Shown here: positions 10,101 through 40,783 of the stretch, piece by piece
How the letters are laid out: every line of letters begins with the position of its first letter
Numbering within the stretch: the first letter of the stretch is position 1
NCBI GenBank assembly: GCA_016845345.1
Contig: JAERSV010000039.1
Coordinates: forward strand, 1,113 to 65,112
Direction of reading: 5' to 3'
Origin: Methanobacteriota archaeon
Lineage (GTDB): Archaea > Thermoplasmatota > Poseidoniia > Poseidoniales > Thalassarchaeaceae
DNA: 64,000 bases
Position numbers and translations under genes: made by a program
Notes under the pieces: generated by a model
The model's database searches: none
Seen by the model: the letters and a program-made list of their open reading frames with translations, nothing else
Told to the model about the DNA's origin: nothing

Positions 10101-12364
10101 CCTTTGAATTGTATGATATGCCAGTTTTACCTACAGATGTAACCTTGATGTTATGGCGGGAATGGCAAGATGATAGCGATGGGGATGGAGAAATTGATGC
10201 TGATGAATTCCAACCACAAAATATGGTTATTCCATCAAATCTTTCAATAAATAGAGGAAATTATTCTTTCACTTTTGATGATACATTTGGCCTAGAAGGG
10301 GATTTAATTGCAGGTTATTTGACCGGCTCTGACCCAGCAGGAAATGGTATCATTGGTGGTGGTAGTTCACTTACTAATACTCATTTATTTGTCTATCAAC
10401 TGATGAGTGATGAGGCGCCCAGTATTACTCGTAACGGAGCTGGTTGGGTGGATGGTCCAAGAGATTGGCTTCACCCTTCACCAACATATGGACTAATTAT
10501 TCCATTTGAGGAAGGTAACGGTTTTTCAGATATAGACCATATCAACATCAATTTGGCAGGAAACTCAATTTCAGACCAATTACAAATCCGTTGGAATGCA
10601 AGTGGTGGCGAATGTGTAACACCAAGCCCACACCTAGAGATAGTCAATTGTCATGTACGTGCAAGTGAAGGGGAGATTACTGCATTCACTAGTGATTTGT
10701 ATATTCAGGTAGACTTCAAACTCGCGTGGGATTTACCAGACGAGGGTGACTTGAGAAGGGAACCAGACATCGAGGTAGTTGACCGTGCCGGACAAGGTGA
10801 TTGGTTGGCACTACCTGAATTGTGGTGGCGATTTTCAACTAATTTACAAGTTGAGCCAGATAGCATAATGGTTGAATTATCTGAAGGCAAAAGGTCAGCA
10901 AGTGGTGCGTGGGTAGCGCCAAATAGCAACATCACGATTTCAGGCAGAGTTTCATTTTCGCCGACAGGCGATTTACCCACGGATGAAATGAAAGTCAAAG
11001 TCATGCTTGATGACAAGGGTCCAACAGTTCGCACTGAAAATGGTTGGTGGAGTTCGACTGTAAAGGCCCCAAGTCAGGCCGATTCTGCAATTCCTCTGAC
11101 TTTTGAACTGACAGAATTACCCGCTCAAGCACGGGATGTCACGGATACAGGATTGACGATTCTGTACATCACTGTAGATAACAATCCTCCAATTCCTGTA
11201 AATGTAGTCGGGCCAAGAATTGGAAGTGAAATTCAAGTTTCTGCGCTTTCATCATTAGTAGTAGAACTTCAGGTTAAAGAATATGAACAACTCGACATTG
11301 ATACAGTTCGACTAAACTGGTTAGTCACACATGGCTCAAATCCGTACGGGGATGAAATCGCCAGCGGCCAAAATACAGTGGTTCTACCAGCCCACAACCC
11401 TGCCGGAGAAGCAATTCCGGTAAGAGCAACACTTGAGTTACAATCTGTGATTCCTGCAGTCATGCTGTCTGACGAACTCACGCTTCATGCTTGGATAACA
11501 GGTAAAGACATGGTTGGCAATGAGATGGTATCAGATATCCAATTCAATTCCGAAGGGAGCCCGTTCGCGGCTTGGAGAATACAGCAACTGCAAGCCGATT
11601 TACTTGTGGAAGATGCTGACTTGAGTTACTCAAGAAGTGGAGAAATTGAGTTAGGCGAAACCGTCATGGTGACAGTTGTGGTCCATAATTTAGGTGAGGT
11701 TTATGGGGTCGGGGAACTAACTCTAAAGGAGGTTGATTCGGAGGGTGTTAGCAGAGTTATTACTCCAGTATATGTCACAGTAGGTGTGGACCCAAGTGGC
11801 TCTAGCCAAGCACAAATTGACTGGATTCCTGAGAGTGAAGGGCATTACTTCATCGTTGTCATTATGGATGGTGAAGAGGTTGCAACCGGGGATGTTGTAA
11901 CAGTGACTCAACCGGCAGATACTGGTTTACTCGCTGATTTGAACGCAAAAGGATTTTCCATTGAATGGATTGGAATTCTTGGCGGATTGTTGATTTTATT
12001 AGCCGCAGTAGTTGTAATCGGAATGCGGGCTAGTGGCGCACCTAAGCGAGATTGGTTTGATGAGGATGACGATGCAACAGCCGTAGTTGAGGCTGAAATT
12101 GAACAAAATCAGCAGTGGACTCCTGAACAGATCGCAAATTGGCAACAATCACAAGCACAAGGGATGCAAACTCAGCAAGAGTGGACTCCAGAGCAGATTG
12201 CACAATGGCAACAATCCCAAGCACAAGGCATGCAAACTCAGCAAGAGTGGACACCTGAGCAAATTGCTTGGTGGCAACAGCAACAGATGCAACAATATGG
12301 TCAAACCCAACAGGGTTGGGATGGATATCAACAGGCACAACAAGATTCCACTTATCAGAAATAA
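7142..12364 (+). CDS. Giant (1740 aa) surface protein, lipobox N-terminus, single C-terminal TM, Gln/Trp-rich cytoplasmic repeat tail
   Basis: GTG start preceded by gaggggaggg. The signal FTISLVAC is lipobox-like. A jelly-roll/MAM-like segment ends CCDWWFVDDVRL. Also DDSDGDGEIDADE, the TM helix IEWIGILGGLLILLAAVVVIGM, and 3 x (Q)EWTPEQIAxWQQ repeats. Confidence 0.8.
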   Translation: MKRCAIFLTFIMFTISLVACTPNFSSNITQDGELEKGDINGFASLNSTEVVTINSHPNSVTNSFKVEVPEGEAVRNLSLELSPTALPRSEGISFTAPNDFNQSGATSQGVDYNSSGLQVSAIDEYWSFEGSNNLPTGWTTSNTNYGRINTMSCGTNGSSSRSLTVRHGSVSVTSNQIDLSSLSNGQISFWMREGQSGCGEDPDSSEHMFVEYIKSSGSWGQITYFNAGLGYPYYTPRNVAFNLPNDAFHSNFKFRFRLSHGSGTCCDWWFVDDVRLTKPGGEGNWTTPAFGPSANNANFRSLPGPYGVMSIDTDAPSNAVTWSVLDASNNTPLDGFYERQGNWADLGGIDWQKHPAIRLKVTLEAMGTGSVTKVNGVHIQGLFVNSFDDSPTDWSLIACSWDGDSIVGDGEAYSPTFISRRPISRISTALTVSGGGHLEATIDGGPWVTIPTTGLTNLDGWVHSIQFRWLGQGQYFDLQRFEVELHGSGLPESPLIDLGNDGNEEWGLTNNSIGTWGWQDVLANGNRSIDLKFPNQHNVEFWIPKDSAGDLIFEISPELSTGVTDLQLQLLIGGNVISSWTFGSADESRTLRVGEAEKANLVAELTISQPVYSQSGVEYVAVEMMLDASAGGVRFGGIAIPHSPSAMLHFEPESDFILGLNNLAGSMSATDGWVSLPLSMSWTYLGSMEVTLRELNTGLATEISLESADNLSATLSPSWQMFEFEHNITVESGELAALRYDLVGDNNAITYTVWLGASPLPADTIEGDADAIILPAVFDTGSYTTPAGASGPGICCELHPTLRFSLNASWDDEDLVTLTLRGIMNDGLISLPWVHMFGVGPSQGVENDMEIIDWRVLNDRGITIADETSYLKADSDISVEVEFGFEGLESMFAPRSDDIEVRLLENGIVKAQTNQLVQGVATFNTRTPVATGDVEYAVEFDPLVGGDDVTTIILNRSFEIDSISPIVIYQSVKAHDHLEPSLSQTLTFELYDMPVLPTDVTLMLWREWQDDSDGDGEIDADEFQPQNMVIPSNLSINRGNYSFTFDDTFGLEGDLIAGYLTGSDPAGNGIIGGGSSLTNTHLFVYQLMSDEAPSITRNGAGWVDGPRDWLHPSPTYGLIIPFEEGNGFSDIDHININLAGNSISDQLQIRWNASGGECVTPSPHLEIVNCHVRASEGEITAFTSDLYIQVDFKLAWDLPDEGDLRREPDIEVVDRAGQGDWLALPELWWRFSTNLQVEPDSIMVELSEGKRSASGAWVAPNSNITISGRVSFSPTGDLPTDEMKVKVMLDDKGPTVRTENGWWSSTVKAPSQADSAIPLTFELTELPAQARDVTDTGLTILYITVDNNPPIPVNVVGPRIGSEIQVSALSSLVVELQVKEYEQLDIDTVRLNWLVTHGSNPYGDEIASGQNTVVLPAHNPAGEAIPVRATLELQSVIPAVMLSDELTLHAWITGKDMVGNEMVSDIQFNSEGSPFAAWRIQQLQADLLVEDADLSYSRSGEIELGETVMVTVVVHNLGEVYGVGELTLKEVDSEGVSRVITPVYVTVGVDPSGSSQAQIDWIPESEGHYFIVVIMDGEEVATGDVVTVTQPADTGLLADLNAKGFSIEWIGILGGLLILLAAVVVIGMRASGAPKRDWFDEDDDATAVVEAEIEQNQQWTPEQIANWQQSQAQGMQTQQEWTPEQIAQWQQSQAQGMQTQQEWTPEQIAWWQQQQMQQYGQTQQGWDGYQQAQQDSTYQK
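12113..12310 (+). repeat. 66-bp tandem repeat x3 inside the giant surface-protein gene
   Basis: The TGG of (Q/E)WTPEQIA recurs at 12116, 12182 and 12248 (period 66 bp). It encodes QQEWTPEQIAQWQQSQAQGMQT-type units. Confidence 0.9.
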
Positions 12365-30504: not shown

Positions 30505-32277
30505 ATGAGAGTAGCAGTTCTTCTTGATGACAGATGTCAGCCAAAAAAATGCGACGACCAATGCCACGCTTTTTGCCCACCAGTACGTAACGGCCAAGAA
30601 TGCATTGTGTTCCATGAAAAAACAAAAAAGCCGATAATTTCAGAACAACTCTGTATCGGCTGTGGAATCTGCGTAAACAAGTGTCCATTTGACGCATTAG
30701 TAATTCAAAATCTTCCAGAAGAATTGGAATCTGACATGATTCATAGATATGGCAGAAATGGGTTCCGTCTTTTCCGCCTACCAGCACCGCGTGAGGAACA
30801 AGTGGTGGGAATACTCGGTCAAAATGGGATGGGCAAATCAACCGCGATCAACATTCTCTCGGGGGGCCTCACACCTAACTTGGGTGACTGGCATATTGAC
30901 GCGGCTGAGTGGGACGAGATTCTAGGGAGCCTACCAAAGGGAGAGTTACGAGATTACCTTGAACTAGTGGCTGGCACAGGGGTAAGGGTGGCTCTCAAGC
31001 CTCAATATGTTGACCATATCCCGAAGGCATTCAAGGGTCAAGTCGGTGAATTGTTGGCAACTGTTGACGAGCGGGATGCAATGAAAGAAGTCACTACGGA
31101 CTTAGGAATTGACCATTTGCTTGAGAGAAATTTACCACAACTTTCTGGCGGCGAATTGCAGAGAGTTGCTATCGCCGCCACATTGTTGAAAGATGCAGAT
31201 GTCTATTTCTTTGATGAGCCATCATCTTATCTTGACATATTTGAGAGAATGAGAATTGTCAAAATATTGCAAAATCTTTCCGAAGGAAAACGAGTCATCG
31301 TGATTGAGCACGACTTGGCTATTCTCGATGTTCTGTGCGACCTTGTTCACATCGTTTACGGGACTAGGGCGGCATTTGGAATTTTCACTCCCCCACGTTC
31401 AACTCGCAAAGCAATCAATGCCTATCTTGACGGCTTTTTAGTTGAGGAGAATGTACGGATTCGCGATAAACCTATCTCTTTTGTGAGAGGTACTGTGCGT
31501 GAAGAGGCGGTGGGATTACCTATTCTAGAATGGGGAGACTTAGAGAAAAAACTTGGAAATTTCCAACTCACAACAGGAAAAGGTACACTTCATGAAACAG
31601 AAGTGGTTGGGGTTGTTGGTCCTAATGCGACTGGCAAAACCACGCTAGCCAAGATATTTGCTGGGGAATTGGAGATGGACGCTGGATGGTGCACGATGGA
31701 GGCGAAGGTTTCCTATAAGCCGCAGCACATTACTGCAGAATTCCCCGGTTCAGTACGCGAATGGCTAGATGCTGAAATTGGCAGTTCTTGGCATGTGGGT
31801 GAATTTCAAACTAGAGTTGTTAGGCCATTAGAGGTTGACAAATTGTTGGAACTTGATGCGTCTCGCCTATCTGGAGGCGAATTACAAGCAGTCTCAATTG
31901 TAATCTGTCTTGGTAGGGATGCTGACATTTATTTGTTGGATGAACCAAGTGCTCATTTGGATGCTAACGCAAGAATGGAGGCGGCGAAGGCTATCAGGAG
32001 AACCATGGAGTCCAATGAAAAATCGGCAATGGTGATTGACCATGACATATATTTCATAGATATCGTTAGTGATTCTTTACTTGTGTTTGAGGGTGAGGGA
32101 GGAACCGCAGGAGAAGCGATTGGGCCACTAACATTGAGAAAGGGAATGAATCGATTTTTGAAAGGAGTTGGAGTTACTTTCCGTAGAGATCATGATTCAA
32201 AGCGACCACGTATCAATAAAGAAGCCAGCCAAAAAGACCGTGAACAGAAAGCGAACGATGATTACTACTACAGTTGA
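30505..32277 (+). CDS. ABCE1 / RNase L inhibitor homolog (ribosome recycling ATPase)
   Basis: An N-terminal Fe-S domain (CQPKKCDDQCHAFCP; CIGCGICVNKCP) is followed by two ABC cassettes (GQNGMGKST, GPNATGKTT, 2 x LSGGELQ). SD aggggtgag. Confidence 0.92.
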   Translation: MRVAVLLDDRCQPKKCDDQCHAFCPPVRNGQECIVFHEKTKKPIISEQLCIGCGICVNKCPFDALVIQNLPEELESDMIHRYGRNGFRLFRLPAPREEQVVGILGQNGMGKSTAINILSGGLTPNLGDWHIDAAEWDEILGSLPKGELRDYLELVAGTGVRVALKPQYVDHIPKAFKGQVGELLATVDERDAMKEVTTDLGIDHLLERNLPQLSGGELQRVAIAATLLKDADVYFFDEPSSYLDIFERMRIVKILQNLSEGKRVIVIEHDLAILDVLCDLVHIVYGTRAAFGIFTPPRSTRKAINAYLDGFLVEENVRIRDKPISFVRGTVREEAVGLPILEWGDLEKKLGNFQLTTGKGTLHETEVVGVVGPNATGKTTLAKIFAGELEMDAGWCTMEAKVSYKPQHITAEFPGSVREWLDAEIGSSWHVGEFQTRVVRPLEVDKLLELDASRLSGGELQAVSIVICLGRDADIYLLDEPSAHLDANARMEAAKAIRRTMESNEKSAMVIDHDIYFIDIVSDSLLVFEGEGGTAGEAIGPLTLRKGMNRFLKGVGVTFRRDHDSKRPRINKEASQKDREQKANDDYYYS

Positions 32278-32285
32278 GTGATTTA

Positions 32286-34181
32286 ATGCCAGTTGTACTT
32301 CCACCAAGCGCAGGATATCTTGGCAAGAGCAGGCGCCGGATTTCAGCCAGTGGCTTAGTCACTTGGGAGCGCTGTCCACGCCAATGGCACTATCGCAGAA
32401 GAATTGGACTCAATGATGCTACAAATCCTGAAATGATTATTGGATTAGTTGTTGAAGATGCACTTTGCGGGCTTTTCATGCAACGTTTTCCTGAAAACGA
32501 AACGGCAATGCCGGGGCTAGTAGAATGGGTGAATTTTAGCCGCCAAGAAAACGGGTTAGGGAAAATTAGCCCTAATGATGAGGTCATTATCAAAGATTTA
32601 GAATCAATTTCACAATGGATGGAATTGGTTATTCCTTCATTAGTTCAGGAAGTTCAGAGACTCTTACAAGCGCGTTGGGATGCCACTCAATGGAAATCCG
32701 CTGGCCGTGATATTGCAGAAGTTAAAGATGAACGAATTGAGAATCTAATTCGTGGTGGAATCAAATTACAATTAGAAGAAGTTGAAAACTGCTTCAACGC
32801 TGGTGGCGGGCCACATCTCAAATCTTACAGAAATGCAGGTGACCCGTTCACAGTTCCGGCACCTTGTTGGGATGAAGTACCGGTTTCTCCGGGTGAAGAT
32901 GCAAATCGTAGTGCGACTGATGGATTTGAAAAATCAGGTGATGTCACTATCTGGGAAGCCTGGGAAATCGCTAGACCATGGGTCAAAGACCCAAGAATTG
33001 CCGTGCCTCAAAGGCTCTTTCACCCTGATGGTTGGGCCGCTGGTGAGATGGATTTGGTACACAGATGGGACGGAAATGTCAGAATCTGTGATATTAAGGC
33101 AAGCGCTGGTACAAGCGGATATTCTGCTGGATTAGCCAATCAACTTCGGTTTTACCAGTGGCTATGGGGAATTACCCGAACCCACTCAGGCCGGCCTAGT
33201 AAAGGCGAAAGTGGTGGTGAACTTTCCGGTCTCGAAGGGTGGTACTTGAATGGTCCGCACAGAAAAATAGTTGAATTGCTAGATGAGAAAACCCTTGATT
33301 CAGAATCTGCTCGTTGGAAAAATATTCACGAACAAATGACTCTTTCGGGACTACACCCCACTCACCTCGCGCCTGCTGACCCTGCACCTTGGCTAACTCA
33401 CTCACCGGGAGGAAAAGCACTTCCTGTTGAAGATGAGGAGGAGGCTAAATCGTTGACTTGTAAACGATGTACTGCGGCCGCATTTTGTGATGCTGCCCCA
33501 GAGAAAATACAAGCAAAAGCACTTGCAGCCTTAACTCCACCTGAACTTGGTAATCCTGAGAATTTGGTTGCGTCTTTGGTACCAAAAGCACCTTGCACGA
33601 TGATTTCTGAGATACCTCAACGGCTCAATGTTAAGGGTGAGGTAAAGGGACAATGGGGTCCACTATCGAACCACTTTGGCGAAGAAGTACGAGGGGCAAC
33701 AATTGTTGTGGGGAGCACGAACGTAACGATCGAAGAGATGGGTGCGGAGTCATTTGGTGAAATTCCTTCAGGCACTGAATTAGCATTACTTGATGTAGCT
33801 CCCGGAGTATGGCGGCGGATGACAAGATTATATCTTGACGAACATAGTTCAATGAAGCCAGTCGACGAAGTAGATGATGTTGAATTTACCAGACTTGGAT
33901 TAATTCCAACCAAGGCGAACCTCTCTGGGCAGGTTGTTAGCAGAGGTGGCCACAGTGGTGTCAACGCTAGAGGGAAGCCTTGGTCAATGTCAACTTGCCA
34001 CATATGGGACGGTGAATCAGTTATCGAAGTCGTTGCCTTTGGCTCAGCAATTACGAGAACTTTTCAAAAATTACAAGTTGGTGATATTGTACGGATTCTA
34101 GCCGCTGAATTAGGATGGAGAGATGGAGTGCCGCAAGTAAGAATTGACCAGCGTAATACCCGACTTGAAGTCAAAGAGTAA
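32286..34181 (+). CDS. Cas4/AddB-like iron-staple PD-(D/E)xK nuclease fused to C-terminal OB-fold-like region (paralog A)
   Basis: Motifs: SASGLVTWERCPRQW, VVEDAL, GEMDLV, ICDIKAS, QLRFYQWLW and CKRCTAAAFC (CX2CX5C, nt 33459-33488). The beta-rich C-terminal ~180 aa includes ...MSTCHIWDGESVIEVVAFG...LQVGDIVRI... ATG lies 8 nt after the ABCE1 stop. Confidence 0.7.
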   Translation: MPVVLPPSAGYLGKSRRRISASGLVTWERCPRQWHYRRRIGLNDATNPEMIIGLVVEDALCGLFMQRFPENETAMPGLVEWVNFSRQENGLGKISPNDEVIIKDLESISQWMELVIPSLVQEVQRLLQARWDATQWKSAGRDIAEVKDERIENLIRGGIKLQLEEVENCFNAGGGPHLKSYRNAGDPFTVPAPCWDEVPVSPGEDANRSATDGFEKSGDVTIWEAWEIARPWVKDPRIAVPQRLFHPDGWAAGEMDLVHRWDGNVRICDIKASAGTSGYSAGLANQLRFYQWLWGITRTHSGRPSKGESGGELSGLEGWYLNGPHRKIVELLDEKTLDSESARWKNIHEQMTLSGLHPTHLAPADPAPWLTHSPGGKALPVEDEEEAKSLTCKRCTAAAFCDAAPEKIQAKALAALTPPELGNPENLVASLVPKAPCTMISEIPQRLNVKGEVKGQWGPLSNHFGEEVRGATIVVGSTNVTIEEMGAESFGEIPSGTELALLDVAPGVWRRMTRLYLDEHSSMKPVDEVDDVEFTRLGLIPTKANLSGQVVSRGGHSGVNARGKPWSMSTCHIWDGESVIEVVAFGSAITRTFQKLQVGDIVRILAAELGWRDGVPQVRIDQRNTRLEVKE

Positions 34182-34222
34182 AAAATAGGGAACTCTTGAA
34201 GAACCTTGGCCACTAAGAGGGA

Positions 34223-36121
34223 ATGATGCCGGTCTTAGACCCACCAAGCGAAGACCCTGTTGGTCCTTACTCGCGGCTTTCTCACACTCAAGCCGATATG
34301 CATCGCCGATGTCCAAAAATGTGGTATAATCGCTATATTCTTGGTTTGTTAGGTGGCTCCCCGCCAATTTTTGCAATGGGCCACGCTGTTGAGGGAGCAT
34401 TGAACAGAGTGATGCGAGATTCACCAGTATTAGTTTCCCACGATTCACGATCAGAAACTTTTGATTCGCCTCTTGAAGAGGTTGATATTTCAGGCACGGG
34501 AAATGTCGTAGTCAGACCATCGACCCAAACTAATGCAAATTGGCCCGGACTAAGTCTTTCTACCCTTGATAAATCAGAATGGCCACGAGAGCGTCTACAG
34601 ATTACAACATGGGCCAAGGCTAGAGCCAGAATTCACTTTGAAAGAGAATGGGCACAAGCGAAGAAAGAATGGTTAGAAGATCCAAACCGAGTCGGAGATT
34701 GGGATATTTTTGAGGAAAAACGAAAGGAAGAAGCCTGTCAAATGGTATTTGCTGGAATTGAGTTCCATCTTGATGAAGTGGAAGATTGCATGAAAGCAAA
34801 TGGGGGTCCTACATTCAAGGACTGGCGGGTGGGAAAAAATCGCCCCAAATGGCCAGCGCCTGATGGCTTTCCTTACGCCCATTCAATTCCGCATCCATGC
34901 GCTGAATCCTCGGGTGAAATTACTTTTGTTGAAGCATGGGAAGTAGCAAGACCTTGGTTTTGTGACCCTGATGCAGGCCTTTTCGCTCTTACAGCAATTC
35001 ATCCAGAAGGTTGGCTACAGGGAGAATATGATTTAGTCTATAGATGGACAGGCAGCCCTAGAATTCATGATGTTAAAGCGAGTGTTGGCACCTCAGATTA
35101 TTCCTTTGGATACCCTGAACAATTAGCAACTTATGCCTACCTTTGGTGGAGTACGCACAACAGAAAGGAATTGGTTAGTGAATTAGAAATATGGTATCTT
35201 GGAGTCCCAGTTAGAAAAAAAATCAATCTACCTGATGAAAAATCATTACTCAGACTTGAAAATAGACTCAAATCACTTCACAAGAAACTCAAGATGTCCG
35301 AACAAAATCCAGAAAATGAATACCCTGGAAATCCAGCACCGGTTAGGATTTTTGCAGAAGGTGGAGTCCTTACAGATGCGCCACCACTTACTGGGATGGC
35401 TAGATGTGATTCATGTGAGTATCAACTTGTTTGCACTGATTCACCTCATAAAGAAGAATTGTTGAAAGGCGGGTCAACTAAATTTTCTTCAACATCAGAG
35501 GCACAGATAAATTGCACACCTATTGGTGACATTGACCCATTTGTGACAGTTAGAGGAACCGTTAGGGAACCAAATATGGTAAAACAATGGCCAAAGTTTG
35601 AGAAAGAATATCTTGAGTTCTTCCTTGATTTAGGGCCAAGCGAATGGTTGGCTGTTGTAATTAGACAGGATAACCCAAATATTCCATTTGGTTTTGAACA
35701 TGGAGCAACAGTTCGCATCAGAAATGGAATTATTGCATCTGGCTGGAAAAAAAGTTTGGGTGCTCACAAGCGACTTGATGTGTCAGCCAGTGGAACCATC
35801 GAATTAGCCCCCACATCGTCTGAAGATGATGTGGCTTTTGCGAAATTAATTCCAGAGGAGTACAACGTCCACGCGCGTCTGTATAACTTTAATCACCAAG
35901 AAGGGAAATGGGCTGCTAAACTGATAGATGATACTGGTTCGGCATCATTTCAAGTCTGGGGTGGAGATGAAAAATCACGTGCAGTTCTTGAGGGATATAA
36001 CCCTGAAAGGGGTGACGAAGTGGTACTTGTTGGGGCACAGGCAAAGGACCAGTATGGGCAAATTGTGCTTCAAGCGAGGGTTACCAAAACATTTGCAACT
36101 CGTCTACGTCCAAAACCATAG
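34223..36121 (+). CDS. Cas4/AddB-like iron-staple PD-(D/E)xK nuclease fused to C-terminal OB-fold-like region (paralog B)
   Basis: Colinear with paralog A: MMPVLDPPS, HRRCPKMW, AVEGAL, GEYDLV, IHDVKAS, QLATYAYLWW and CDSCEYQLVC (nt 35404-35433). The C-terminal part includes ...AAKLIDDTGSASFQVWGG...RGDEVVLVGAQ... Confidence 0.7.
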   Translation: MMPVLDPPSEDPVGPYSRLSHTQADMHRRCPKMWYNRYILGLLGGSPPIFAMGHAVEGALNRVMRDSPVLVSHDSRSETFDSPLEEVDISGTGNVVVRPSTQTNANWPGLSLSTLDKSEWPRERLQITTWAKARARIHFEREWAQAKKEWLEDPNRVGDWDIFEEKRKEEACQMVFAGIEFHLDEVEDCMKANGGPTFKDWRVGKNRPKWPAPDGFPYAHSIPHPCAESSGEITFVEAWEVARPWFCDPDAGLFALTAIHPEGWLQGEYDLVYRWTGSPRIHDVKASVGTSDYSFGYPEQLATYAYLWWSTHNRKELVSELEIWYLGVPVRKKINLPDEKSLLRLENRLKSLHKKLKMSEQNPENEYPGNPAPVRIFAEGGVLTDAPPLTGMARCDSCEYQLVCTDSPHKEELLKGGSTKFSSTSEAQINCTPIGDIDPFVTVRGTVREPNMVKQWPKFEKEYLEFFLDLGPSEWLAVVIRQDNPNIPFGFEHGATVRIRNGIIASGWKKSLGAHKRLDVSASGTIELAPTSSEDDVAFAKLIPEEYNVHARLYNFNHQEGKWAAKLIDDTGSASFQVWGGDEKSRAVLEGYNPERGDEVVLVGAQAKDQYGQIVLQARVTKTFATRLRPKP

Positions 36122-36130
36122 CATTCGCTC

Positions 36131-36651
36131 GGTTCAAATCTCCTCTCGGCTTGATGACTGATGCTTATTAGCGCCGAGAGAGAGATTTGAAATGTTGGCA
36201 CTAGACCAATTTCATCATCTTTCATCTTCGGGAAGTGCCAACATGCGAAGGATTGCTTGCAATCCTGAAGCATCCCGCGTAGCGGGAGTTCAATTTCAGC
36301 AATTTTGACCTCTCGGTGACAACGCTTCTCATCGATTGACAACAGAGTTGGCGCCGAGAGGGAGATTTCTGTTTGTTCCAGAACTTCCTTCGCTTCGCTC
36401 AGTGCAGTTCTGAACCATCGCGAGTTTTCTGTTGCATCATTGATTATTGAAAACTCGCTGGGTTCAAATCTCCTCTCGGCTTGATGACTGATGATTATTA
36501 GCGCTGAGAGAGAGACTTCTGTTTGTTCCAGAACTTCCTTCGCTTCGCTCAGTACAGTTCTGAACCATCGCGAGTTTTCTGTTGCATCATTGATTATTGA
36601 AAACTCGCTGGGTTCAAATCTCCTCTCGGCTTGATGACAGATGTTTGATGA
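36131..36651. repeat. Array of direct and inverted copies of the tRNA-Ser 3' end, including a 150-bp tandem duplication
   Basis: Inverted copies ggttcaaatctcctctcggc lie at 36131, 36461 and 36611, with a degenerate one ending at 36318. Direct copies cgc(c/t)gagag(g/a)gaga(t/c)tt lie at 36172, 36352 and 36502, and the tRNA itself at 36652. Units 36352-36501 and 36502-36651 show about 10 mismatches by hand alignment. Confidence 0.9.
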
Positions 36652-36734
36652 CGCCGAGAGGGAGATTCGAACTCCCGCGTCACGAGGACAGTGGATTTCG
36701 AATCCACCGCGATACCGGGCTATGCGATCTCGGC
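36652..36734 (-). tRNA. tRNA-Ser (anticodon CGA), class II with long variable arm
   Basis: Acceptor GCCGAGA/TCTCGGC, discriminator G, anticodon arm GTGGA-TTCGAAA-TCCAC, variable arm TGTCCTCGTGACG(C), T arm GGGAG-TTCGAAT-CTCCC. The D stem pairs poorly in my hand fold. Confidence 0.8.
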
Positions 36735-37036: not shown

Positions 37037-37804
37037 TTAGGCGTAGAATCCTGCATCTTGTTCTGAAACATCAAAGTCAATCGGCATTTCAGCGATTTCA
37101 TCAAGGTCAAAAAATGCCTTCAATTTTTCAGCGGTTTCTTTCGTGTTGTTGAGTTCAAGACCGAGATTTAATTTGAATGATTCATTTAGAAAAGTGACCA
37201 TTCGGTCTGCTGCTACAGAATCAGCACTTGTGCCAACGGTTTCAGCGATAATACATGCTGATGATTGGTTGAATGTGGGAGCCAATGATGACACCATCCC
37301 CGTCATCCCAATAATTCCAGCCGCAGGATGCTCTTTGGAAACTTCAACACCAATATCAGTGATATCTTTGACATCATCTGCACTAGCGCAGACCACGTGT
37401 ACTGCTTCATCTCCAGGCTCTGCGGAGAGCCCTGCTAAAATCAATAATCGGCCGATTTTTGCATCCTTACAACATTCTAACAATGATGAAGCAACCTCAT
37501 ATTGCCCAGCCGGTGTCAACGGCTGAAAATTACTTGAAAGTGTCAAAATTTTACTGCCATTAGGTAACTCAACAGAATGGATATCAAGAGATGGTGGTGT
37601 TAATATCCCATTCTCACTAAGAGTTGCATGCGGTGGCAAGTCAGGATGAAGTAAACGTGCTACTAAATCGCTATCATGTGTATTCACTAGGCTGTCAGTA
37701 ACTAATTTACCAACATTACCAACACCGGGAACAGCGTGTAACATCAAATCATTTTTTGGAAGCTTTTTTGCTCCACCGTACCACACAATTCGAGTCCGAC
37801 TCAC
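37037..37804 (-). CDS. PAC2-family (proteasome assembly chaperone 2-like) protein
   Basis: LMLHAVPGVGNVGKLV matches the GxPGxGxVG PAC2 signature. GTG 37804 overlaps the nop10 TGA (GTGA) and follows gggggaagaggag. The longer ORF would run through nop10. Confidence 0.7.
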   Translation of the reverse strand: MSRTRIVWYGGAKKLPKNDLMLHAVPGVGNVGKLVTDSLVNTHDSDLVARLLHPDLPPHATLSENGILTPPSLDIHSVELPNGSKILTLSSNFQPLTPAGQYEVASSLLECCKDAKIGRLLILAGLSAEPGDEAVHVVCASADDVKDITDIGVEVSKEHPAAGIIGMTGMVSSLAPTFNQSSACIIAETVGTSADSVAADRMVTFLNESFKLNLGLELNNTKETAEKLKAFFDLDEIAEMPIDFDVSEQDAGFYA

Positions 37805-38010
37805 TCCTCTTCCCCCTTGGGGCTTGGTAGGTTTTCCACCCATTTTGGGTCGGTTACTTTTTGATATTCTCGTCGGCGTTTTGCCTGAGGGTCTTGGGGT
37901 GAAAACTTGAGCGGCCCTGCTGCTTGGGCAACTCCCCCACACTTCTTGCAGGTAGTGCTTAGGCCATAACTGCCACAATCTCGGCATTTCTGAATTCTTG
38001 AGCGAGCCAT
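37801..38010 (-). CDS. nop10: H/ACA RNP protein Nop10
   Basis: IQKCRDCGSYGLSTTCKKCGG...PLKFSPQDP matches the Nop10 zinc ribbon plus the PxKFSPxD motif. SD aaggtg. Confidence 0.85.
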   Translation of the reverse strand: MARSRIQKCRDCGSYGLSTTCKKCGGVAQAAGPLKFSPQDPQAKRRREYQKVTDPKWVENLPSPKGEEE

Positions 38011-38074
38011 CTCAGCACCTTACATCCAATTGTAATGGACCCGGTTCAAAGCGATTGCCCAACGAACCTCTGTT

Positions 38075-38866
38075 TCAAACTCTCTCGGCCACTGCTGTGC
38101 CGCCTGCACTTGTTACCACGGGAATTGCTGATGATTCTGCTGCTCGCCATGCATTTTCTGCTGATTTGTAGTCAGGTGCCCTAATTTCGATTCGATATCT
38201 TGGGGCACCATCATAGTGACAAGTCACAATTGTTTCTTCTTTGGCATCAGTTCCTGCTTCTTCGGCCGCAGAAAGTGCTTCTCTGATGATTTCAATCCCA
38301 TCCTCGGAGACAACTTGGATTTCAAAGAAACCACGGATGTTGACAAAAGGTGGTATAATATTCTCAACTGCCAGTTCGATGAAAACCTTGCACCAGTCGC
38401 CTTTGAATCCTAAATCTTTGAGGGCGGCTCCATCGATTGCACATTCCTCAAACGCTGTGTATAGGTCTCCAAACGATTCCACCAATTCCTTTGACATGTC
38501 AGAAGTTTCTGATTCAGACCACTTTACCCGGTCTCCAACAATTCCTAAAAGTTGGGTTGCTCGATTCTCGTTCTTCCACTTCTGCATCGCCTCTCGGCGG
38601 CGTTCTTCACTGACAGATTTGAGTGATAATTCAACAGTTTTCCGGTCTTTCTTGACCTTCATTACTTTGGCAGCCAGTCTCTGTCCTTTGCGGACAAAAC
38701 CACGAATGTTTTTTACCCATCCAGCAGCGATTTCACCTACGAAGATGAATCCCTCTTTATCACCATAATTGTCAAGTGAGGCGTATGCGCCATTCTTTTT
38801 GACTTCAGTAATTACACAAACGACGATTTCGCCTTCTTCGGGCCAATCATCATTTTCTGCTGACAT
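38075..38866 (-). CDS. Translation initiation factor aIF2 alpha subunit
   Basis: The S1 domain is PEEGEIVVCVITEVKKNGAYASLDNYGDKEGFIFVGEIAAGWVKNIR, followed by central and C-terminal domains. ATG 38866 is preferred over GTG 38890. Confidence 0.9.
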   Translation of the reverse strand: MSAENDDWPEEGEIVVCVITEVKKNGAYASLDNYGDKEGFIFVGEIAAGWVKNIRGFVRKGQRLAAKVMKVKKDRKTVELSLKSVSEERRREAMQKWKNENRATQLLGIVGDRVKWSESETSDMSKELVESFGDLYTAFEECAIDGAALKDLGFKGDWCKVFIELAVENIIPPFVNIRGFFEIQVVSEDGIEIIREALSAAEEAGTDAKEETIVTCHYDGAPRYRIEIRAPDYKSAENAWRAAESSAIPVVTSAGGTAVAERV

Positions 38867-38886
38867 TTGATTTTCACACCCAGAGC

Positions 38887-39075
38887 TCACTCAAGAATTT
38901 CAACCACTGCAGCGCTGACAAGTTTTGCCTTGCCGCCTGCTGGCTGAGTTAGAGTAGCCCCACAGATGTTACATGAAATCTTCGTGCAAGCACGCTCAAA
39001 GATAACTTGTTCATTTCCGCAATCACGGCAAGATACACGTACGAATTTTCCTGTCACTGTATTCACCTCAATCAT
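38887..39075 (-). CDS. rps27e: Ribosomal protein S27e
   Basis: FVRVSCRDCGNEQVIFERACTKISCNICGATLTQPAGGKA, with the C4 zinc ribbon intact. Confidence 0.9.
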   Translation of the reverse strand: MIEVNTVTGKFVRVSCRDCGNEQVIFERACTKISCNICGATLTQPAGGKAKLVSAAVVEILE

Positions 39076-39503: not shown

Positions 39504-40283
39504 ATGCTGGCAACGACACTCCTTTGGCAGTATTGGCTACCGGTTTTACTACTGCCACTTGGTATAGGACTAGTGGTTGCTAAGGAATCAGAGCGAAGAC
39601 TTACGGGCAAGGTCCTCCTAATTCTACTGACGATAATGATTATCGCCCAACCAAGTTCTTTGGATTCAACAATTGAAGGCTGGTCTTTACACCTGCTGAT
39701 TTCACTAATTGGTCCGATTATTGCAATGTTGTTTGGCATTTGGTTTACTCTGTTTTCAGGACCAATTCCCGTAGCACCACTGCCTCGCAGTGTGCGACCT
39801 TTTGGATTTGCATTGATGATATTATCAGCAGCATGGTTCGCATGGATGGTGTTTGAAGCCAGACCAGCAATTGACGGGGTTGCAAATCCTTGGTGGCAAC
39901 ACTTTGTCACTAGTTTCCTAACCTCACTAGTTGTAGTTGCAGGATTTGCTGCTGCCTTTGCCCTAATCATGGGAGATTCAAGGCTAAAAGAAGCAGTTGT
40001 GATGGCTCTGATTTCTATTTCCTCTTTCATTCTGTTAATCTATCTTTTAGCAGAAGGGACAAATTCCGATGACCCGGTATTTTGGAGAAGTGCTTCTTGG
40101 GGGGCACTTGGCGATCTTGGGGGAATGTTGTTTGGGAGTGGTCTTGCACTCATGTTTTTCATCACATTTGTTTGGTTCGGCGAAAAAAGATTGGGTGTAC
40201 CAGAATCTGTTGCGCCACTAAGTGAAGATGAAACGAGTACGATCCGTGAAATTATTTCAACCAATGTGGAGGTTGATGAATGA
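39504..40283 (+). CDS. Polytopic membrane protein, function unknown
   Basis: Seven or more hydrophobic helices. The antisense ORF 39461..40030 is compositionally implausible. Confidence 0.6.
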   Translation: MLATTLLWQYWLPVLLLPLGIGLVVAKESERRLTGKVLLILLTIMIIAQPSSLDSTIEGWSLHLLISLIGPIIAMLFGIWFTLFSGPIPVAPLPRSVRPFGFALMILSAAWFAWMVFEARPAIDGVANPWWQHFVTSFLTSLVVVAGFAAAFALIMGDSRLKEAVVMALISISSFILLIYLLAEGTNSDDPVFWRSASWGALGDLGGMLFGSGLALMFFITFVWFGEKRLGVPESVAPLSEDETSTIREIISTNVEVDE

Positions 40284-40783
40284 CGCAAGATGGAGATGTT
40301 GTTCGCGATTGGCGTACTCTCACACTAGTTGTGTTGACTCTAACGGTGTTAATTTTCATTGCTAATATTCACTTAGAAGTGCGCGGAGAGGTTGGGGATG
40401 TAGATATTCTTTCAAGATTCACACACTCTGTAATAATTAGTTTCATTTTTGTAAATAGCGCGTTGTTTTTGATTACTCTAGCATTATCCCATAAACATGC
40501 AAAATTGGTTGAACAGGCGCTTGGAACTTTTCTTGCGGCAGTTGTTGGTGCCTTGTTGTATGGATTGCTTGTTGACTCAGGAATGACTGTTGCTGGTGTT
40601 GCAACCGATGTGTGGTCGCAATTTTCTATTGGTGCCATTCGTATGATGACCGCGGATTTTGCAATTCTTCTCTCATTAGGCACTAGTTTCGGTATTCTTC
40701 TGACTCTTGTGACAGGAAGAGAATCACCTTCTGACCCACTACTTGAGTTAGAAACGACCTCTTTTGAGAACGAAGAGGAATGA
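40280..40783 (+). CDS. Polytopic membrane protein, function unknown
   Basis: ATGA overlap with the upstream gene, 4-5 TM helices, acidic tail ENEEE. Confidence 0.6.
   Translation: MTQDGDVVRDWRTLTLVVLTLTVLIFIANIHLEVRGEVGDVDILSRFTHSVIISFIFVNSALFLITLALSHKHAKLVEQALGTFLAAVVGALLYGLLVDSGMTVAGVATDVWSQFSIGAIRMMTADFAILLSLGTSFGILLTLVTGRESPSDPLLELETTSFENEEE

What the first reader, a model, noticed from the sequence alone, without database searches (positions are those of the whole stretch)
32286..36121. Tandem paralog pair: Cas4/AddB-type iron-staple nuclease fused to OB-fold-like modules, directly downstream of ABCE1
Two adjacent, colinear ~630-aa proteins share the same architecture.
- N-terminus: MPV(V)L(D)PPS, followed by a Cys in ERCPRQW / RRCPKMW.
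- PD-(D/E)xK motifs in canonical order: VVEDAL/AVEGAL, GEMDLV/GEYDLV, ICDIKAS/IHDVKAS, and QLRFYQWLW/QLATYAYLWW (QxxxY).
- A C-terminal CX2CX5C (CKRCTAAAFC / CDSCEYQLVC). One N-terminal Cys plus CX2CX5C is the 4Fe-4S iron-staple arrangement of Cas4, AddB, Exo5 and Dna2 nucleases.
- Two departures from Cas4: a ~230-aa insert between motif I and motif II, and a ~180-aa beta-rich C-terminal region whose pattern (e.g. ...TCHIWDGESVIEVVAFG...LQVGDIVRI...; ...LIDDTGSASFQVWGG...RGDEVVLVGA...) looks like one or two RPA/tRNA-anticodon-type OB folds.
- No helicase, Cas1/Cas2 or CRISPR array is nearby.

Gene A starts 8 nt after the ABCE1 stop and B starts ~45 nt after A, so the three genes look like one operon. 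The pair ends 10 nt before the tRNA-Ser-derived repeat array.

Hypotheses:
- A heterodimeric helicase-less Dna2/Exo5-like ss-nucleic-acid end-processing nuclease.
- A role linked to ABCE1-dependent ribosome rescue or RNA surveillance.
- Surviving cargo of an element once integrated at tRNA-Ser.

Whether this family is already described cannot be judged without a database search.
Basis: partly seen in the sequence, partly recalled or inferred. Interest (0 to 1): 0.78.

Follow-up and report, generated by a model that had tools for sequence, protein, structure and literature searches.

The report
Paired Fe-S nucleases with RPA-like folds
Two neighbouring genes in this marine archaeon (Marine Group II, Poseidoniales) each fuse a Cas4/AddB-type iron-sulfur DNA-cutting domain to a pair of RPA-like single-stranded-DNA-binding folds; the pair is kept across the order, nobody has characterised it, and it probably trims single-stranded DNA ends.

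Summary
Two colinear paralogs, A (32286-34181) and B (34223-36121), are 28% identical (E 3e-48).

- **Nuclease half:** both pass Pfam PF12705 (PD-(D/E)xK) above the curated cut-off. The E, D, D-x-K and Q-x3-Y motifs are invariant in about 240 homologs.
- **Structure:** AlphaFold models are confident (pLDDT 92 and 94, pTM 0.90). The N-terminal half matches phage RecB/Cas4-family exonucleases with a ~180-aa helical insert looped out. The C-terminal half is a tandem OB fold like RPA70 DBD-A/B, POT1 and HIN.
- **Fe-S ligands:** the four Cys are strict in B. In A they are canonical, permuted, reduced to three, or all lost together.
- **Distribution:** the family is essentially confined to Poseidoniales, both families of the order. 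A rare single-copy, one-OB sister occurs in uncultured bacteria.
- **Synteny:** ABCE1→A→B→tRNA-Ser is conserved, with median gaps of about 12 and 41 nt. Both links break in some lineages. Composition and codon usage are native, so the pair is not mobile-element cargo.
- **Specialisation:** A keeps its OB folds far better than B (51-57% against 31% identity).

Best reading: a helicase-less, probably heteromeric, Exo5/Dna2-nuclease-like enzyme that processes ssDNA ends. This is inferred, not shown. No earlier description was found. I rate it a new variant of a known kind, of moderate interest.

The parts
30505..32277 (+). ABCE1 (RLI) ribosome-recycling ATPase. It is the upstream gene of the likely operon and is not part of the nuclease family itself.
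   Evidence: Pfam: two ABC_tran domains, Fer4_RLI, Fer4. It lies upstream of A in most of the 85 loci compared. The gap to A is 5-53 nt in 42 of 45 measured loci.
32286..34181 (+). Paralog A (631 aa): Fe-S PD-(D/E)xK nuclease with a helical insert and tandem OB folds. It is the derived copy, with highly conserved OB folds and variable Fe-S ligands across the clade.
   Evidence: AF2 model: pLDDT 91.9, pTM 0.90. Foldseek: tandem-OB hits.
32373..32459 (+). A: N-terminal iron-staple Cys (C30, 'ERCPRQW') and the motif I helix with invariant E57.
   Evidence: C30 is present in 103 of 121 A homologs and E57 in 100%. This segment aligns to Cas4 4r5q (E 0.0014) and to DNA2 5eaw residues 123-181 (E 0.022).
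32478..33020 (+). A: ~180-aa mainly helical insert between motif I and motif II (long helices 105-133 and 148-171). It holds an invariant Cys169 ('VENC..GGGP') and the EAWEIARPW motif.
   Evidence: Secondary structure of the model. C169 is present in 121 of 121 homologs. The insert is looped out in alignments to 250-290-aa phage RecB/Cas4 exonucleases. It is shorter in the bacterial outgroup.
33021..33275 (+). A: catalytic core, with G253-E-x-D256, D269-x-K271 and the Q286-x3-Y290 helix.
   Evidence: Invariant columns. Pfam PF12705 best stretch covers residues 253-401.
33459..33488 (+). A: CX2CX5C triad (C392, C395, C401).
   Evidence: Read from the sequence. In the A clade the arrangement is canonical in about 55 homologs, permuted (CX5-6CX2C) in about 49, reduced to CxxC in a few, and lost together with C30 in 15.
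33621..34178 (+). A: tandem OB folds (OB1 residues ~446-530, OB2 ~531-631), RPA70 DBD-A/B-like.
   Evidence: Foldseek PDB hits to 4gop_C, 1jmc and 1fgu (RPA70), HIN-200, Teb1 and POT1, E 1e-8 to 1e-6. Profile hits: P. abyssi RPA 8aa9 at E 4e-7, Ta0387 at 0.008, Sso SSB at 0.009. Mean pairwise identity is 0.51 and 0.57, against 0.31 in B.
34223..36121 (+). Paralog B (632 aa): same architecture. It is the ancestral-like copy, with strictly conserved Fe-S ligands and fast-evolving OB folds.
   Evidence: AF2 model: pLDDT 94.2, pTM 0.90. Foldseek PDB and BFVD. The bacterial outgroup is closer to B in 10 of 10 cases.
35000..35227 (+). B: catalytic core, with G267-E-Y-D270, D283-x-K285 and Q300-x3-Y304.
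   Evidence: 100% conserved. PF12705 best stretch covers residues 265-404.
35405..35434 (+). B: CX2CX5C triad (C395, C398, C404), which pairs with C30 (nt 34310-34312).
   Evidence: Present in 121 of 121 B homologs; C30 in 118 of 121.
35537..36118 (+). B: tandem OB folds (OB1 ~439-530, OB2 ~531-632).
   Evidence: Foldseek PDB: HIN-200, POT1, RPA70 and Teb1, E 1e-9 to 1e-6. BFVD: LEF-3 and phage SSB.
36652..36734 (-). tRNA-Ser(CGA), a conserved downstream neighbour of B. It is context, not part of the enzyme.
   Evidence: ARAGORN. Present right after B in 15 of 15 loci, in either orientation.

Best explanation
A and B are two specialised paralogs of a previously uncharacterised nuclease family.

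Shown here:
- Each protein is one compact polypeptide. A Cas4/AddB/Dna2/Exo5-type PD-(D/E)xK nuclease domain carries an added ~180-aa helical insert and is fused to a tandem RPA70-like OB module.
- The nuclease domain carries the one-plus-three Cys pattern that binds an 'iron-staple' 4Fe-4S cluster in those relatives.
- All catalytic motifs are intact in both proteins.
- The pair arose by duplication before Poseidoniales diversified and has been kept in both families of the order.

Inferred:
- The OB module captures single-stranded DNA and feeds a free end into the nuclease active site. The insert and the Fe-S element probably close over that site, as in Dna2, Exo5 and Cas4, which thread ssDNA.
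- The enzyme therefore degrades or clips ssDNA ends or flaps without a motor of its own.
- A and B most likely work as a hetero-oligomer with divided labour: A as the main ssDNA-binding subunit and B as the main Fe-S nuclease.
- The role would be in replication-fork, flap or break-end processing. That would make it a helicase-less analogue of AddAB, or of the Dna2 nuclease acting with RPA.
- Co-transcription with ABCE1 is taken as a housekeeping operon arrangement, not a shared pathway.
For: Nuclease family:
- PF12705 is above the gathering score in both proteins.
- Motifs E, D, D-x-K and Q-x3-Y are invariant in 242 sequences and in the bacterial outgroup.
- The N-terminal Cys segment aligns to Cas4 4r5q (E 0.0014) and to DNA2 (E 0.022).
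- Model B matches phage RecB-family, COG2887 and Cas4-family exonucleases, with TM up to 0.68 normalised to the target, across about 400 query columns.

Fe-S unit:
- The four Cys are 97-100% conserved in B.
- In A they are canonical, permuted, reduced to three, or all four lost together in one subclade. The joint loss shows the four Cys behave as one unit.

ssDNA module:
- The models are confident (pLDDT 92 and 94, pTM 0.90).
- In both PDB searches nearly all of the top 50 hits are tandem-OB DNA binders: RPA70 DBD-A/B, POT1, Teb1 and HIN-200.
- The family profile hits archaeal RPA at E 4e-7.
- Many invariant aromatic residues lie in A's OB folds (W457, W509, Y516, W566, W574, F585, W611).

Specialised pair:
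- A and B are each monophyletic.
- They are adjacent in nearly all loci, with a median gap of 41 nt.
- OB identity is 0.51 and 0.57 in A against 0.31 in B, with A higher in 97% of 1431 genome pairs. The insert, core and Fe-S segments are slightly better kept in B.

Core housekeeping gene:
- 461 confirmed stretches occur in species-representative genomes, and all listed ones are Poseidoniales apart from three probably mis-binned contigs.
- GC and codon usage are native.
- Only marginal defence-family (PADLOC) matches, DruK at E 8e-5 and Cas4 at 0.02.

Precedent: archaeal replication genes are often embedded among translation genes next to the L44E-S27E-aIF2alpha-Nop10 cluster (PMC2643942).
Against: - No biochemical data exist, and the substrate (DNA or RNA, end polarity) is inferred only from relatives.
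- The heterodimer is not tested.
- The pair can be split. In the Cys-less-A lineage, A is followed by a DEDD exonuclease and B lies elsewhere. One single-cell genome has A without B at the usual place (L073). The bacterial relatives are single-copy. So each protein can presumably act alone.
- The closest conserved neighbour is a translation factor, not a replication or repair gene. No helicase, RadA, Mre11 or PCNA gene is linked.
- The top 50 Foldseek PDB hits contain no nuclease. Structural support for the nuclease half comes only from predicted viral structures.
Confidence: 0.55

Rival explanations
1. RNA-surveillance nuclease coupled to ABCE1. A/B would cleave or trim mRNA or rRNA on stalled or split ribosomes, and the OB folds would bind single-stranded RNA. 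The operon with the ribosome-recycling ATPase would then reflect a shared pathway.
For: - ABCE1->A order is seen in about 66 of 85 loci across two families whose A orthologs are only 37-45% identical.
- The gaps are 5-17 nt in 35 of 45 measured loci.
- Even the lineage that split A from B keeps ABCE1->A.
- The neighbours on the other side are translation genes (PAC2/COG2047, aIF2alpha, S27e, L44e).
- OB folds in general can bind RNA.
Against: - From established knowledge of the family, every characterised iron-staple PD-(D/E)xK enzyme (Cas4, AddB, Dna2, Exo5) is a DNase.
- The best OB matches are ssDNA or dsDNA binders, not S1, cold-shock or anticodon-binding domains.
- The bacterial sister family exists although bacteria have no ABCE1.
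- One Poseidoniales lineage has A-B next to PurF/ThiI with no ABCE1 upstream.
- Archaeal translation-gene clusters are known to host DNA-replication genes.
Confidence: 0.15
2. Two independent, partly redundant stand-alone nucleases. The genes would remain adjacent only by descent from a tandem duplication, with no complex and each protein acting as a monomer or homo-oligomer.
For: - Both paralogs keep every catalytic residue.
- The bacterial relatives are single-copy.
- A and B are separated in the P0059/P0156 lineage, and B is missing at the usual site in L073.
- Each AF2 monomer model is compact and confident on its own.
Against: - Both copies have been retained since before the order diversified, and they are adjacent in nearly all loci.
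- The divergence is strongly complementary: OB folds are constrained in A, and the Fe-S ligands and nuclease are constrained in B. That is the pattern expected of subunits with divided labour rather than of redundant copies.
Confidence: 0.2
3. A defence or mobile-element nuclease: a solo Cas4-like protein acting against viruses, or leftover cargo of an element integrated at tRNA-Ser.
For: - Many solo Cas4-like PF12705 proteins are linked to defence or are phage-encoded (PMC5704561).
- The best structural matches for the nuclease half are phage exonucleases.
- The window has tRNA-Ser fragment repeats right after B.
Against: - The pair is a core gene pair with conserved flanks across the order.
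- tRNA-Ser(CGA) is an ancestral neighbour, and close relatives lack the repeats.
- Codon-usage distance ranks 3rd and 8th most typical of 40 window genes, and GC is 0.47 and 0.44 against a median of 0.45.
- PADLOC gives only weak generic hits.
- There are no cas genes, CRISPR array, integrase or defence partners in the annotated flanks.
Confidence: 0.05

Closest known systems
Cas4-like / RecB-family exonucleases of Pfam PF12705 (COG2887; includes the AddB nuclease domain and phage 'Cas4 family exonucleases')
   Same: - Profile match above the curated threshold.
- Same motif order: E, D, D-x-K, Q-x3-Y.
- One N-terminal Cys plus a C-terminal CX2CX5C.
- Fold match to phage members, with TM up to 0.68 on the target.
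   Different: - A ~180-aa helical insert lies between motif I and motif II, with its own invariant Cys.
- A C-terminal tandem OB module is present.
- The proteins are about 630 aa rather than about 200-290 aa.
- They form a paralog pair.
- There is no CRISPR, helicase or phage context.
- No such fusion is listed in the Cas4 phylogenomics survey.
Dna2 nuclease-helicase (eukaryotes and some archaea)
   Same: - An iron-staple PD-(D/E)xK nuclease is combined with OB-type ssDNA binding in one polypeptide.
- The N-terminal Cys segment aligns weakly to DNA2 residues 123-181 (E 0.022).
- The predicted job is the same: an ssDNA end or flap nuclease that works with an RPA-like module.
   Different: - There is no SF1 helicase domain.
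- The OB folds are C-terminal and tandem, of RPA70 type, instead of a single N-terminal OB.
- No Pfam Dna2 family hit.
Exo5 (yeast and human 5' ssDNA exonuclease with a 4Fe-4S cluster)
   Same: It is a helicase-less iron-staple nuclease that acts on ssDNA ends, so it is the nearest analogue for the proposed mechanism.
   Different: - No Pfam Exo5 (PF09810) hit at E<=1.
- Exo5 has no OB module and does not come as a paralog pair.
AddAB / AdnAB two-nuclease end-resection complexes
   Same: Two paralogous or related subunits are encoded side by side, each with a RecB-type nuclease and one with an Fe-S staple. The idea of one nuclease per DNA strand, or of divided labour, carries over.
   Different: AddAB and AdnAB are driven by SF1 helicase motors. 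A and B have none, and no helicase is linked.
RPA70 DBD-A/B, archaeal RPA, and other tandem-OB proteins (POT1, Teb1, HIN-200)
   Same: Tandem OB architecture. These are the top Foldseek hits, at E 1e-9 to 1e-6. The profile hits P. abyssi RPA at E 4e-7.
   Different: The module is fused to a nuclease. Sequence identity is only 10-15%. The window's A scores below the Pfam OB cut-off (23 against 27 bits).

Membership tests
PD-(D/E)xK nuclease superfamily, Cas4/AddB-like branch (Pfam PF12705 PDDEXK_1) | Profile match above the curated gathering score | tested here: met
   A scores 37.6 bits and B 40.9 bits against a cut-off of 22. PF12705 is precomputed for nearly all homologs.
PD-(D/E)xK nuclease superfamily, Cas4/AddB-like branch (Pfam PF12705 PDDEXK_1) | Catalytic motifs in canonical order (E ... 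D ... D/E-x-K ... Q-x3-Y) | tested here: met
   E57, D256, D269, K271, Q286 and Y290 in A, and E57, D270, D283, K285, Q300 and Y304 in B, are 99-100% conserved. They are also present in the bacterial outgroup.
PD-(D/E)xK nuclease superfamily, Cas4/AddB-like branch (Pfam PF12705 PDDEXK_1) | Restriction-endonuclease-like alpha/beta fold | tested here: met
   Model B matches phage RecB-family, COG2887 and Cas4-family exonucleases in BFVD (E 5e-6 to 5e-3, TM on target 0.5-0.68). Caveat: the targets are predicted structures, and no nuclease appears in the PDB top 50.
Iron-staple (4Fe-4S) nucleases: Cas4, AddB, Dna2, Exo5 | One N-terminal Cys plus a C-terminal CX2CX5C | tested here: met
   Met in the window's A and B, and in 121 of 121 B homologs. 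Across the A clade the pattern is variable: canonical, permuted, three-Cys, or absent.
Iron-staple (4Fe-4S) nucleases: Cas4, AddB, Dna2, Exo5 | The four Cys converge in space and bind a 4Fe-4S cluster | not testable with these tools
Indirect support: all four Cys were lost together in one A subclade. A direct answer needs UV-vis or EPR on purified protein.
CRISPR-associated Cas4 proper | Match to the Cas4 family profile (PF01930) and a position next to cas1/cas2 or a CRISPR array | tested here: not met
   No PF01930 hit at E<=1. The PADLOC Cas4 hit has E 0.022 only. There are no cas genes in the flanks. Some sources nevertheless label homologs 'Cas4 (RecB family)'.
Dna2 | SF1B helicase domain C-terminal to the nuclease | tested here: not met
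   No helicase or AAA family hit in A or B. The C-terminus is a tandem OB fold.
AddAB / AdnAB | SF1 helicase motor in at least one subunit, and a stable heterodimer | tested here: not met
   There is no helicase domain and no linked helicase gene. The heterodimer could not be tested.
Exo5 | Match to Pfam Exo5 (PF09810) | tested here: not met
   It is not among the hits at E<=1.
RPA/SSB-type OB fold (tandem, DBD-A/B-like) | Two consecutive five-stranded OB barrels resembling ssDNA-binding domains | tested here: met
   The secondary structure shows two beta-rich modules. RPA70 DBD-A/B, POT1, Teb1 and HIN-200 dominate the Foldseek top hits. The profile hits P. abyssi RPA at E 4e-7. PF01336 scores below the cut-off in the window's A (23 against 27 bits) but is recorded for several B homologs.
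RPA/SSB-type OB fold (tandem, DBD-A/B-like) | Actual binding of single-stranded DNA | not testable with these tools
   This needs EMSA or fluorescence anisotropy with ssDNA against ssRNA.

The most novel reading that the evidence does not exclude
The A/B pair is functionally coupled to ABCE1. It would be a nucleic-acid-cleaving module that acts with ribosome splitting, for example by cutting the mRNA or rRNA of stalled ribosomes. That would make it the first iron-staple PD-(D/E)xK nuclease working in translation quality control, and an archaeal counterpart of the eukaryotic no-go-decay endonucleases. The tight and widely conserved ABCE1->A junction does not exclude this.
Probability: 0.12. Interest if true: 0.85.

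Novelty: new variant of a known kind. Interest (0 to 1): 0.55.

Why it matters
Poseidoniales (Marine Group II) are among the most abundant archaea in the surface ocean, have no cultured representative, and their genome-maintenance machinery is largely inferred.

This pair is a conserved, order-wide, apparently housekeeping nuclease system with a domain combination not described before: an iron-staple nuclease fused to an RPA70-like tandem OB fold, without a motor. If it is the enzyme that trims ssDNA ends or flaps in these organisms, three things follow:
- It would fill a gap in how a major mesophilic archaeal lineage processes replication and repair intermediates.
- It would give a compact natural example of a nuclease with a built-in RPA-like module.
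- It would offer a natural series of Fe-S variants (canonical, permuted, lost) for asking what the iron staple is for.

The persistent operon with ABCE1 is a testable oddity. Practically, database labels such as 'Cas4' for these proteins are misleading.

Tried and rejected
- **Single-sequence search of PDB sequences:** gave only marginal RPA hits for A and nothing for B. Profiles were needed.
- **Foldseek against the PDB with whole models:** the tandem OB dominated all 50 listed hits, so the nuclease half was not evaluated there. The viral library solved this.
- **Measuring Cys and catalytic-residue convergence:** model coordinates are not exposed to scripts, so I could not do it.
- **NCBIfam, PADLOC, PHROGs:** only weak generic hits (HAN nuclease or RPA OB segment, DruK, Cas4, 'exonuclease'). 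The defence-system reading was rejected.
- **Looking for replication genes (PCNA, PriS, GINS) beyond the L44e cluster:** the two ORFs at 39504-40783 have no Pfam family, and the first looks like a membrane protein, so this gave no support.
- **Literature searches:** I searched for an OB-fused Cas4-like nuclease, for Poseidoniales DNA-repair inventories and for ABCE1-nuclease links, and found nothing relevant. One query failed on syntax.
- **MutS-MutL proximity:** seen in Poseidoniaceae loci and considered as a functional link. I rejected it because it is absent from this window and from Thalassarchaeaceae loci, where squalene/phytoene synthases lie upstream.
- **'A-B is unbreakable while ABCE1-A is loose':** rejected after L088/L004 showed the opposite break in another lineage.

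Full report
**1. What is there**

The window holds three co-directional genes on the + strand:
- ABCE1 at 30505-32277;
- ORF A at 32286-34181 (631 aa from the ATG);
- ORF B at 34223-36121 (632 aa).

The intergenic gaps are 8 nt and 41 nt. A and B align over their full length at 28% identity, E 3e-48.

Pfam places both in PF12705, the PD-(D/E)xK nuclease family that includes AddB-like and Cas4-like proteins. The scores of 37.6 and 40.9 bits are above the curated cut-off of 22. The upstream gene is a canonical ABCE1 with Fer4_RLI, Fer4 and two ABC_tran domains.

**2. Family and conservation**

Word-indexed searches of 5.8 billion proteins returned 253 relatives for A and 399 for B. The named ones come from Marine Group II / Poseidoniales MAGs (Thalassarchaeaceae, Poseidoniaceae, Poseidonia). 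They are labelled hypothetical, 'PD-(D/E)XK nuclease family', 'OB-fold nucleic acid binding domain-containing' or, misleadingly, 'Cas4'.

The 240 listed homologs split cleanly into 120 A-type and 120 B-type.

In both clades these residues are 99-100% conserved:
- the motif I Glu (E57);
- G-E-x-D;
- D-x-K;
- Q-x3-Y.

The Fe-S ligand pattern is strict in B: C30 in 118 of 121, and C395, C398 and C404 in 121 of 121. In A it takes several states:
- canonical C...CX2CX5C in about 55 sequences;
- a permuted CX5-6CX2C in about 49;
- only CxxC in a few;
- loss of all four Cys together in 15 sequences from one Poseidoniaceae subclade.

The joint loss is good indirect evidence that the four Cys form one functional unit.

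One further Cys in the insert (A C169, B C189) is invariant even in the Cys-less proteins. It is replaced in the bacterial relatives. Its role is unexplained.

**3. Structure**

AlphaFold2 with an 83-sequence alignment gave confident, compact models: A with pLDDT 91.9 and pTM 0.90, and B with pLDDT 94.2 and pTM 0.90.

The layout of A along the sequence is:
- N-terminal helices carrying C30 and E57;
- a mostly helical insert with two long helices (residues 105-133 and 148-171);
- the beta-strand catalytic core (about 250-330);
- a helix and the Cys triad (about 334-401);
- a helical linker;
- two beta-rich modules (about 446-530 and 531-631).

Foldseek against the PDB returned, for both models, almost only tandem-OB nucleic-acid binders in the 50 listed hits. 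These were RPA70 DBD-A/B (4gop_C, 1jmc, 1fgu), POT1, Teb1-AB and HIN-200 domains, at E 1e-9 to 1e-6 over about 200-230 columns.

The family profile hits Pyrococcus abyssi RPA at E 4e-7, Thermoplasma Ta0387 at 0.008 and Sulfolobus SSB at 0.009.

Against predicted viral structures, model B matches RecB-family, COG2887 and Cas4-family phage exonucleases of 250-290 aa. TM normalised to the target is 0.5-0.68, over about 400 query columns. The whole nuclease half is therefore covered and the insert is looped out.

A nuclease-only profile hits the N-terminal Cys segment of Cas4 4r5q (E 0.0014) and of DNA2 5eaw (E 0.022).

I could not inspect coordinates. The spatial convergence of the Cys and catalytic residues therefore remains untested.

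**4. Distribution and origin**

An exhaustive HMM search of 1.84 billion cluster representatives found 78 proteins at E<=1e-30. Only about 30 of them are full-length clusters, so the family is narrow.

In one-genome-per-species contigs, 461 stretches were confirmed. All of the 79 loci kept are Poseidoniales apart from three contigs in bacterial MAGs that carry archaeal ABCE1 and are probably mis-binned.

The nearest outgroup is a rare family of 430-480-aa proteins. They have the same nuclease, a shorter insert, CX2CX5C and room for a single OB fold. They are single-copy and sit in bacterial contexts (sigma-70, F-type ATPase, cytochrome bc). Their MAGs are labelled Planctomycetes or Deltaproteobacteria.

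In an NJ tree rooted on them, A and B are each monophyletic. All ten outgroup proteins are closer to B, at 83-110 against 50-70 mean bits.

The duplication therefore predates the split between Thalassarchaeaceae and Poseidoniaceae. B is the more ancestral-like copy and A the derived one.

**5. Neighbourhood**

Across 85 loci the order is ABCE1 -> A -> B in about 66. It is usually followed by the convergent PAC2(COG2047)-[Nop10]-aIF2alpha-S27e-L44e cluster.

In 54 loci with complete genes:
- the ABCE1 stop to A start distance is 5-53 nt in 42 of 45, with a median of about 12;
- the A stop to B start distance is -4 to 118 nt in 52 of 54, with a median of 41.

This supports co-transcription. tRNA-Ser(CGA) follows B in 15 of 15 loci examined, in either orientation.

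Both links can break:
- In the L033-type lineage, A-B lies next to PurF/ThiI. Those genes sit beyond the L44e cluster in our window, so a local inversion has moved them, and ABCE1 is not upstream.
- In the lineage with the Cys-less A, ABCE1 -> A is kept but the next gene is an RNase_T/DnaQ-type DEDD exonuclease. B sits alone in front of tRNA-Ser and PAC2 elsewhere.
- One single-cell genome lacks B at the usual site (L073).

The window flanks are ordinary housekeeping genes:
- triosephosphate isomerase, a sugar-nucleotidyl transferase and succinyl-CoA ligase;
- two squalene/phytoene synthases;
- PurF and ThiI.

There is no helicase, cas, integrase or repair gene among them.

A and B have GC of 0.47 and 0.44 against a window median of 0.45. 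Their codon-usage distances rank 3rd and 8th most typical of 40 genes. The 'cargo of an element integrated at tRNA-Ser' idea is therefore rejected.

The ~500 nt of tRNA-fragment repeats between B and the tRNA are a local peculiarity of this genome. Close relatives have the tRNA 25 nt after B.

**6. Specialisation of the two copies**

In matched genomes (1431 genome pairs), mean pairwise identity by region is as follows.

| Region | A | B |
|---|---|---|
| OB1 | 0.51 | 0.31 |
| OB2 | 0.57 | 0.31 |
| Insert | 0.37 | 0.42 |
| Catalytic core | 0.62 | 0.65 |
| Helix + Fe-S segment | 0.31 | 0.38 |

A is higher than B in 97% of genome pairs for both OB folds. The insert, core and Fe-S segment are slightly better conserved in B. 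The Fe-S ligands are also variable in A and strict in B.

This complementary pattern is what one expects of two subunits with divided labour. A would contribute the constrained nucleic-acid-binding or interaction surface. B would contribute the constrained Fe-S nuclease. Redundant duplicates would not be expected to diverge this way. This is an inference; no interaction test was possible.

**7. Mechanism proposed**

Established knowledge of the family:
- Cas4, AddB, Dna2 and Exo5 are DNases that engage single-stranded DNA with a free end. Dna2, Exo5 and Cas4 thread it through or under a closed active site held by the Fe-S staple.
- RPA70 DBD-A/B is the high-affinity ssDNA-binding core of RPA.

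Putting this together with the compact models, I propose the following:
- The tandem OB module captures ssDNA and delivers an end to the nuclease.
- The insert helps to close the channel or mediates subunit contact.
- The A/B assembly trims ssDNA ends or flaps during replication or repair without its own motor.

What is shown: the domain identities, motif integrity, conservation, synteny and asymmetry. What is inferred: substrate, polarity, threading, heteromer and cellular pathway.

The ABCE1 operon is most simply a housekeeping co-expression arrangement. Archaeal replication genes are known to sit among translation genes next to the same L44E-S27E-aIF2alpha-Nop10 cluster (PMC2643942). An RNA-surveillance role with ABCE1 remains the most interesting alternative, at about 0.12-0.15.

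**8. Comparison with known families, and novelty**

The proteins are members of the PF12705 / iron-staple PD-(D/E)xK superfamily; those membership tests were met. They are not CRISPR Cas4, Dna2, AddAB or Exo5: the family profiles or helicase domains that define those were tested and not met.

The survey of Cas4-family nucleases describes PF12705 fusions to UvrD and links to YprA helicases, but no OB fusion and no Marine Group II clade (PMC5704561). Full-text searches found no description of such an enzyme.

I therefore rate it a new variant of a known kind. It combines a new, lineage-restricted domain architecture with a paralog-pair organisation, inside a well-known nuclease superfamily. I score interest at 0.55. 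A specialist would find it a solid new family in an ecologically dominant uncultured archaeal order, with a curious ABCE1 linkage. It is not a categorical surprise, and its function is still inferred.

Noticed in passing
window 36125-36734: About 500 nt of repeats lie between B's stop and tRNA-Ser(CGA): two 150-nt units at 36348-36647, and three 64-nt units at 36125, 36455 and 36605. They carry tRNA 3'-end-like pieces in both orientations. Close relatives (L007, L009, L011) have the tRNA about 25 nt after B with no repeats. The tRNA's orientation flips between lineages. This looks like scars of repeated integration, excision or inversion at the tRNA.
   Followed up: partly
L088/L089 6001-8675; L004 8001-9848: In the Poseidoniaceae lineage whose A has lost all four Fe-S Cys (606 aa), A is still right after ABCE1. 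It is followed 15 nt later by an RNase_T/DnaQ-type DEDD exonuclease (279 aa, PF00929 E 4e-19) and several unknown ORFs. B lies elsewhere, alone in front of tRNA-Ser/PAC2.
   Followed up: partly
window 32790-32792 (A Cys169) and 34787-34789 (B Cys189): A fifth Cys in the helical insert ('VE(N/D)C..(G/N)GGP') is invariant in all 242 archaeal sequences, including the A proteins that lost the Fe-S Cys. It is Trp or Ala in the bacterial outgroup. Its role is unknown.
   Followed up: no
window 32286-32294 and 34226-34234: The N-terminus Met-Pro-Val is nearly invariant in A and B, and Met-Pro is kept in the bacterial relatives. Such a conserved N-terminal Pro is unusual for this nuclease family and may be functional.
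   Followed up: no
L086 6632-9392; L087 6224-9290: In both loci with DNA in hand, the bacterial one-OB relative lies beside a divergently transcribed 333-aa protein with no Pfam family. A small ferredoxin-like gene and an M28 peptidase also lie nearby.
   Followed up: partly
L032, L075, L076: Contigs filed in Yoonia, Rhodobiaceae and Salipiger MAGs carry the Poseidoniales-type A-B pair. L075 and L076 also carry the archaeal ABCE1 and the PAC2/aIF2alpha cluster. This is probably mis-binning of archaeal contigs into bacterial MAGs.
   Followed up: no
L001-L003 1-3992; L005/L006 1-2386: Poseidoniaceae loci have bacterial-type MutS-MutL 2-4 kb upstream of ABCE1 on the opposite strand, separated from it by a 406-413-aa unknown and ribosomal protein L10e. 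These genes are not present in this window.
   Followed up: no
window 37988-38074: No Nop10 gene fits between PAC2 (37037-37987) and aIF2alpha (38075-38890). In L001-L004 Nop10 sits there, as in the near-universal archaeal L44E-S27E-aIF2alpha-Nop10 cluster.
   Followed up: no
window 7175-12364: A 1729-aa ORF has no Pfam family above threshold, only weak Reelin-subrepeat and CARDB hits. It is probably a large surface protein.
   Followed up: no
L005 6162-8001: On a 1.2-Mb long-read contig, A is split into 501-aa and 91-aa ORFs. A short-read contig of the same organism (L006) has an intact 612-aa gene. This is probably an assembly frameshift rather than a pseudogene.
   Followed up: no
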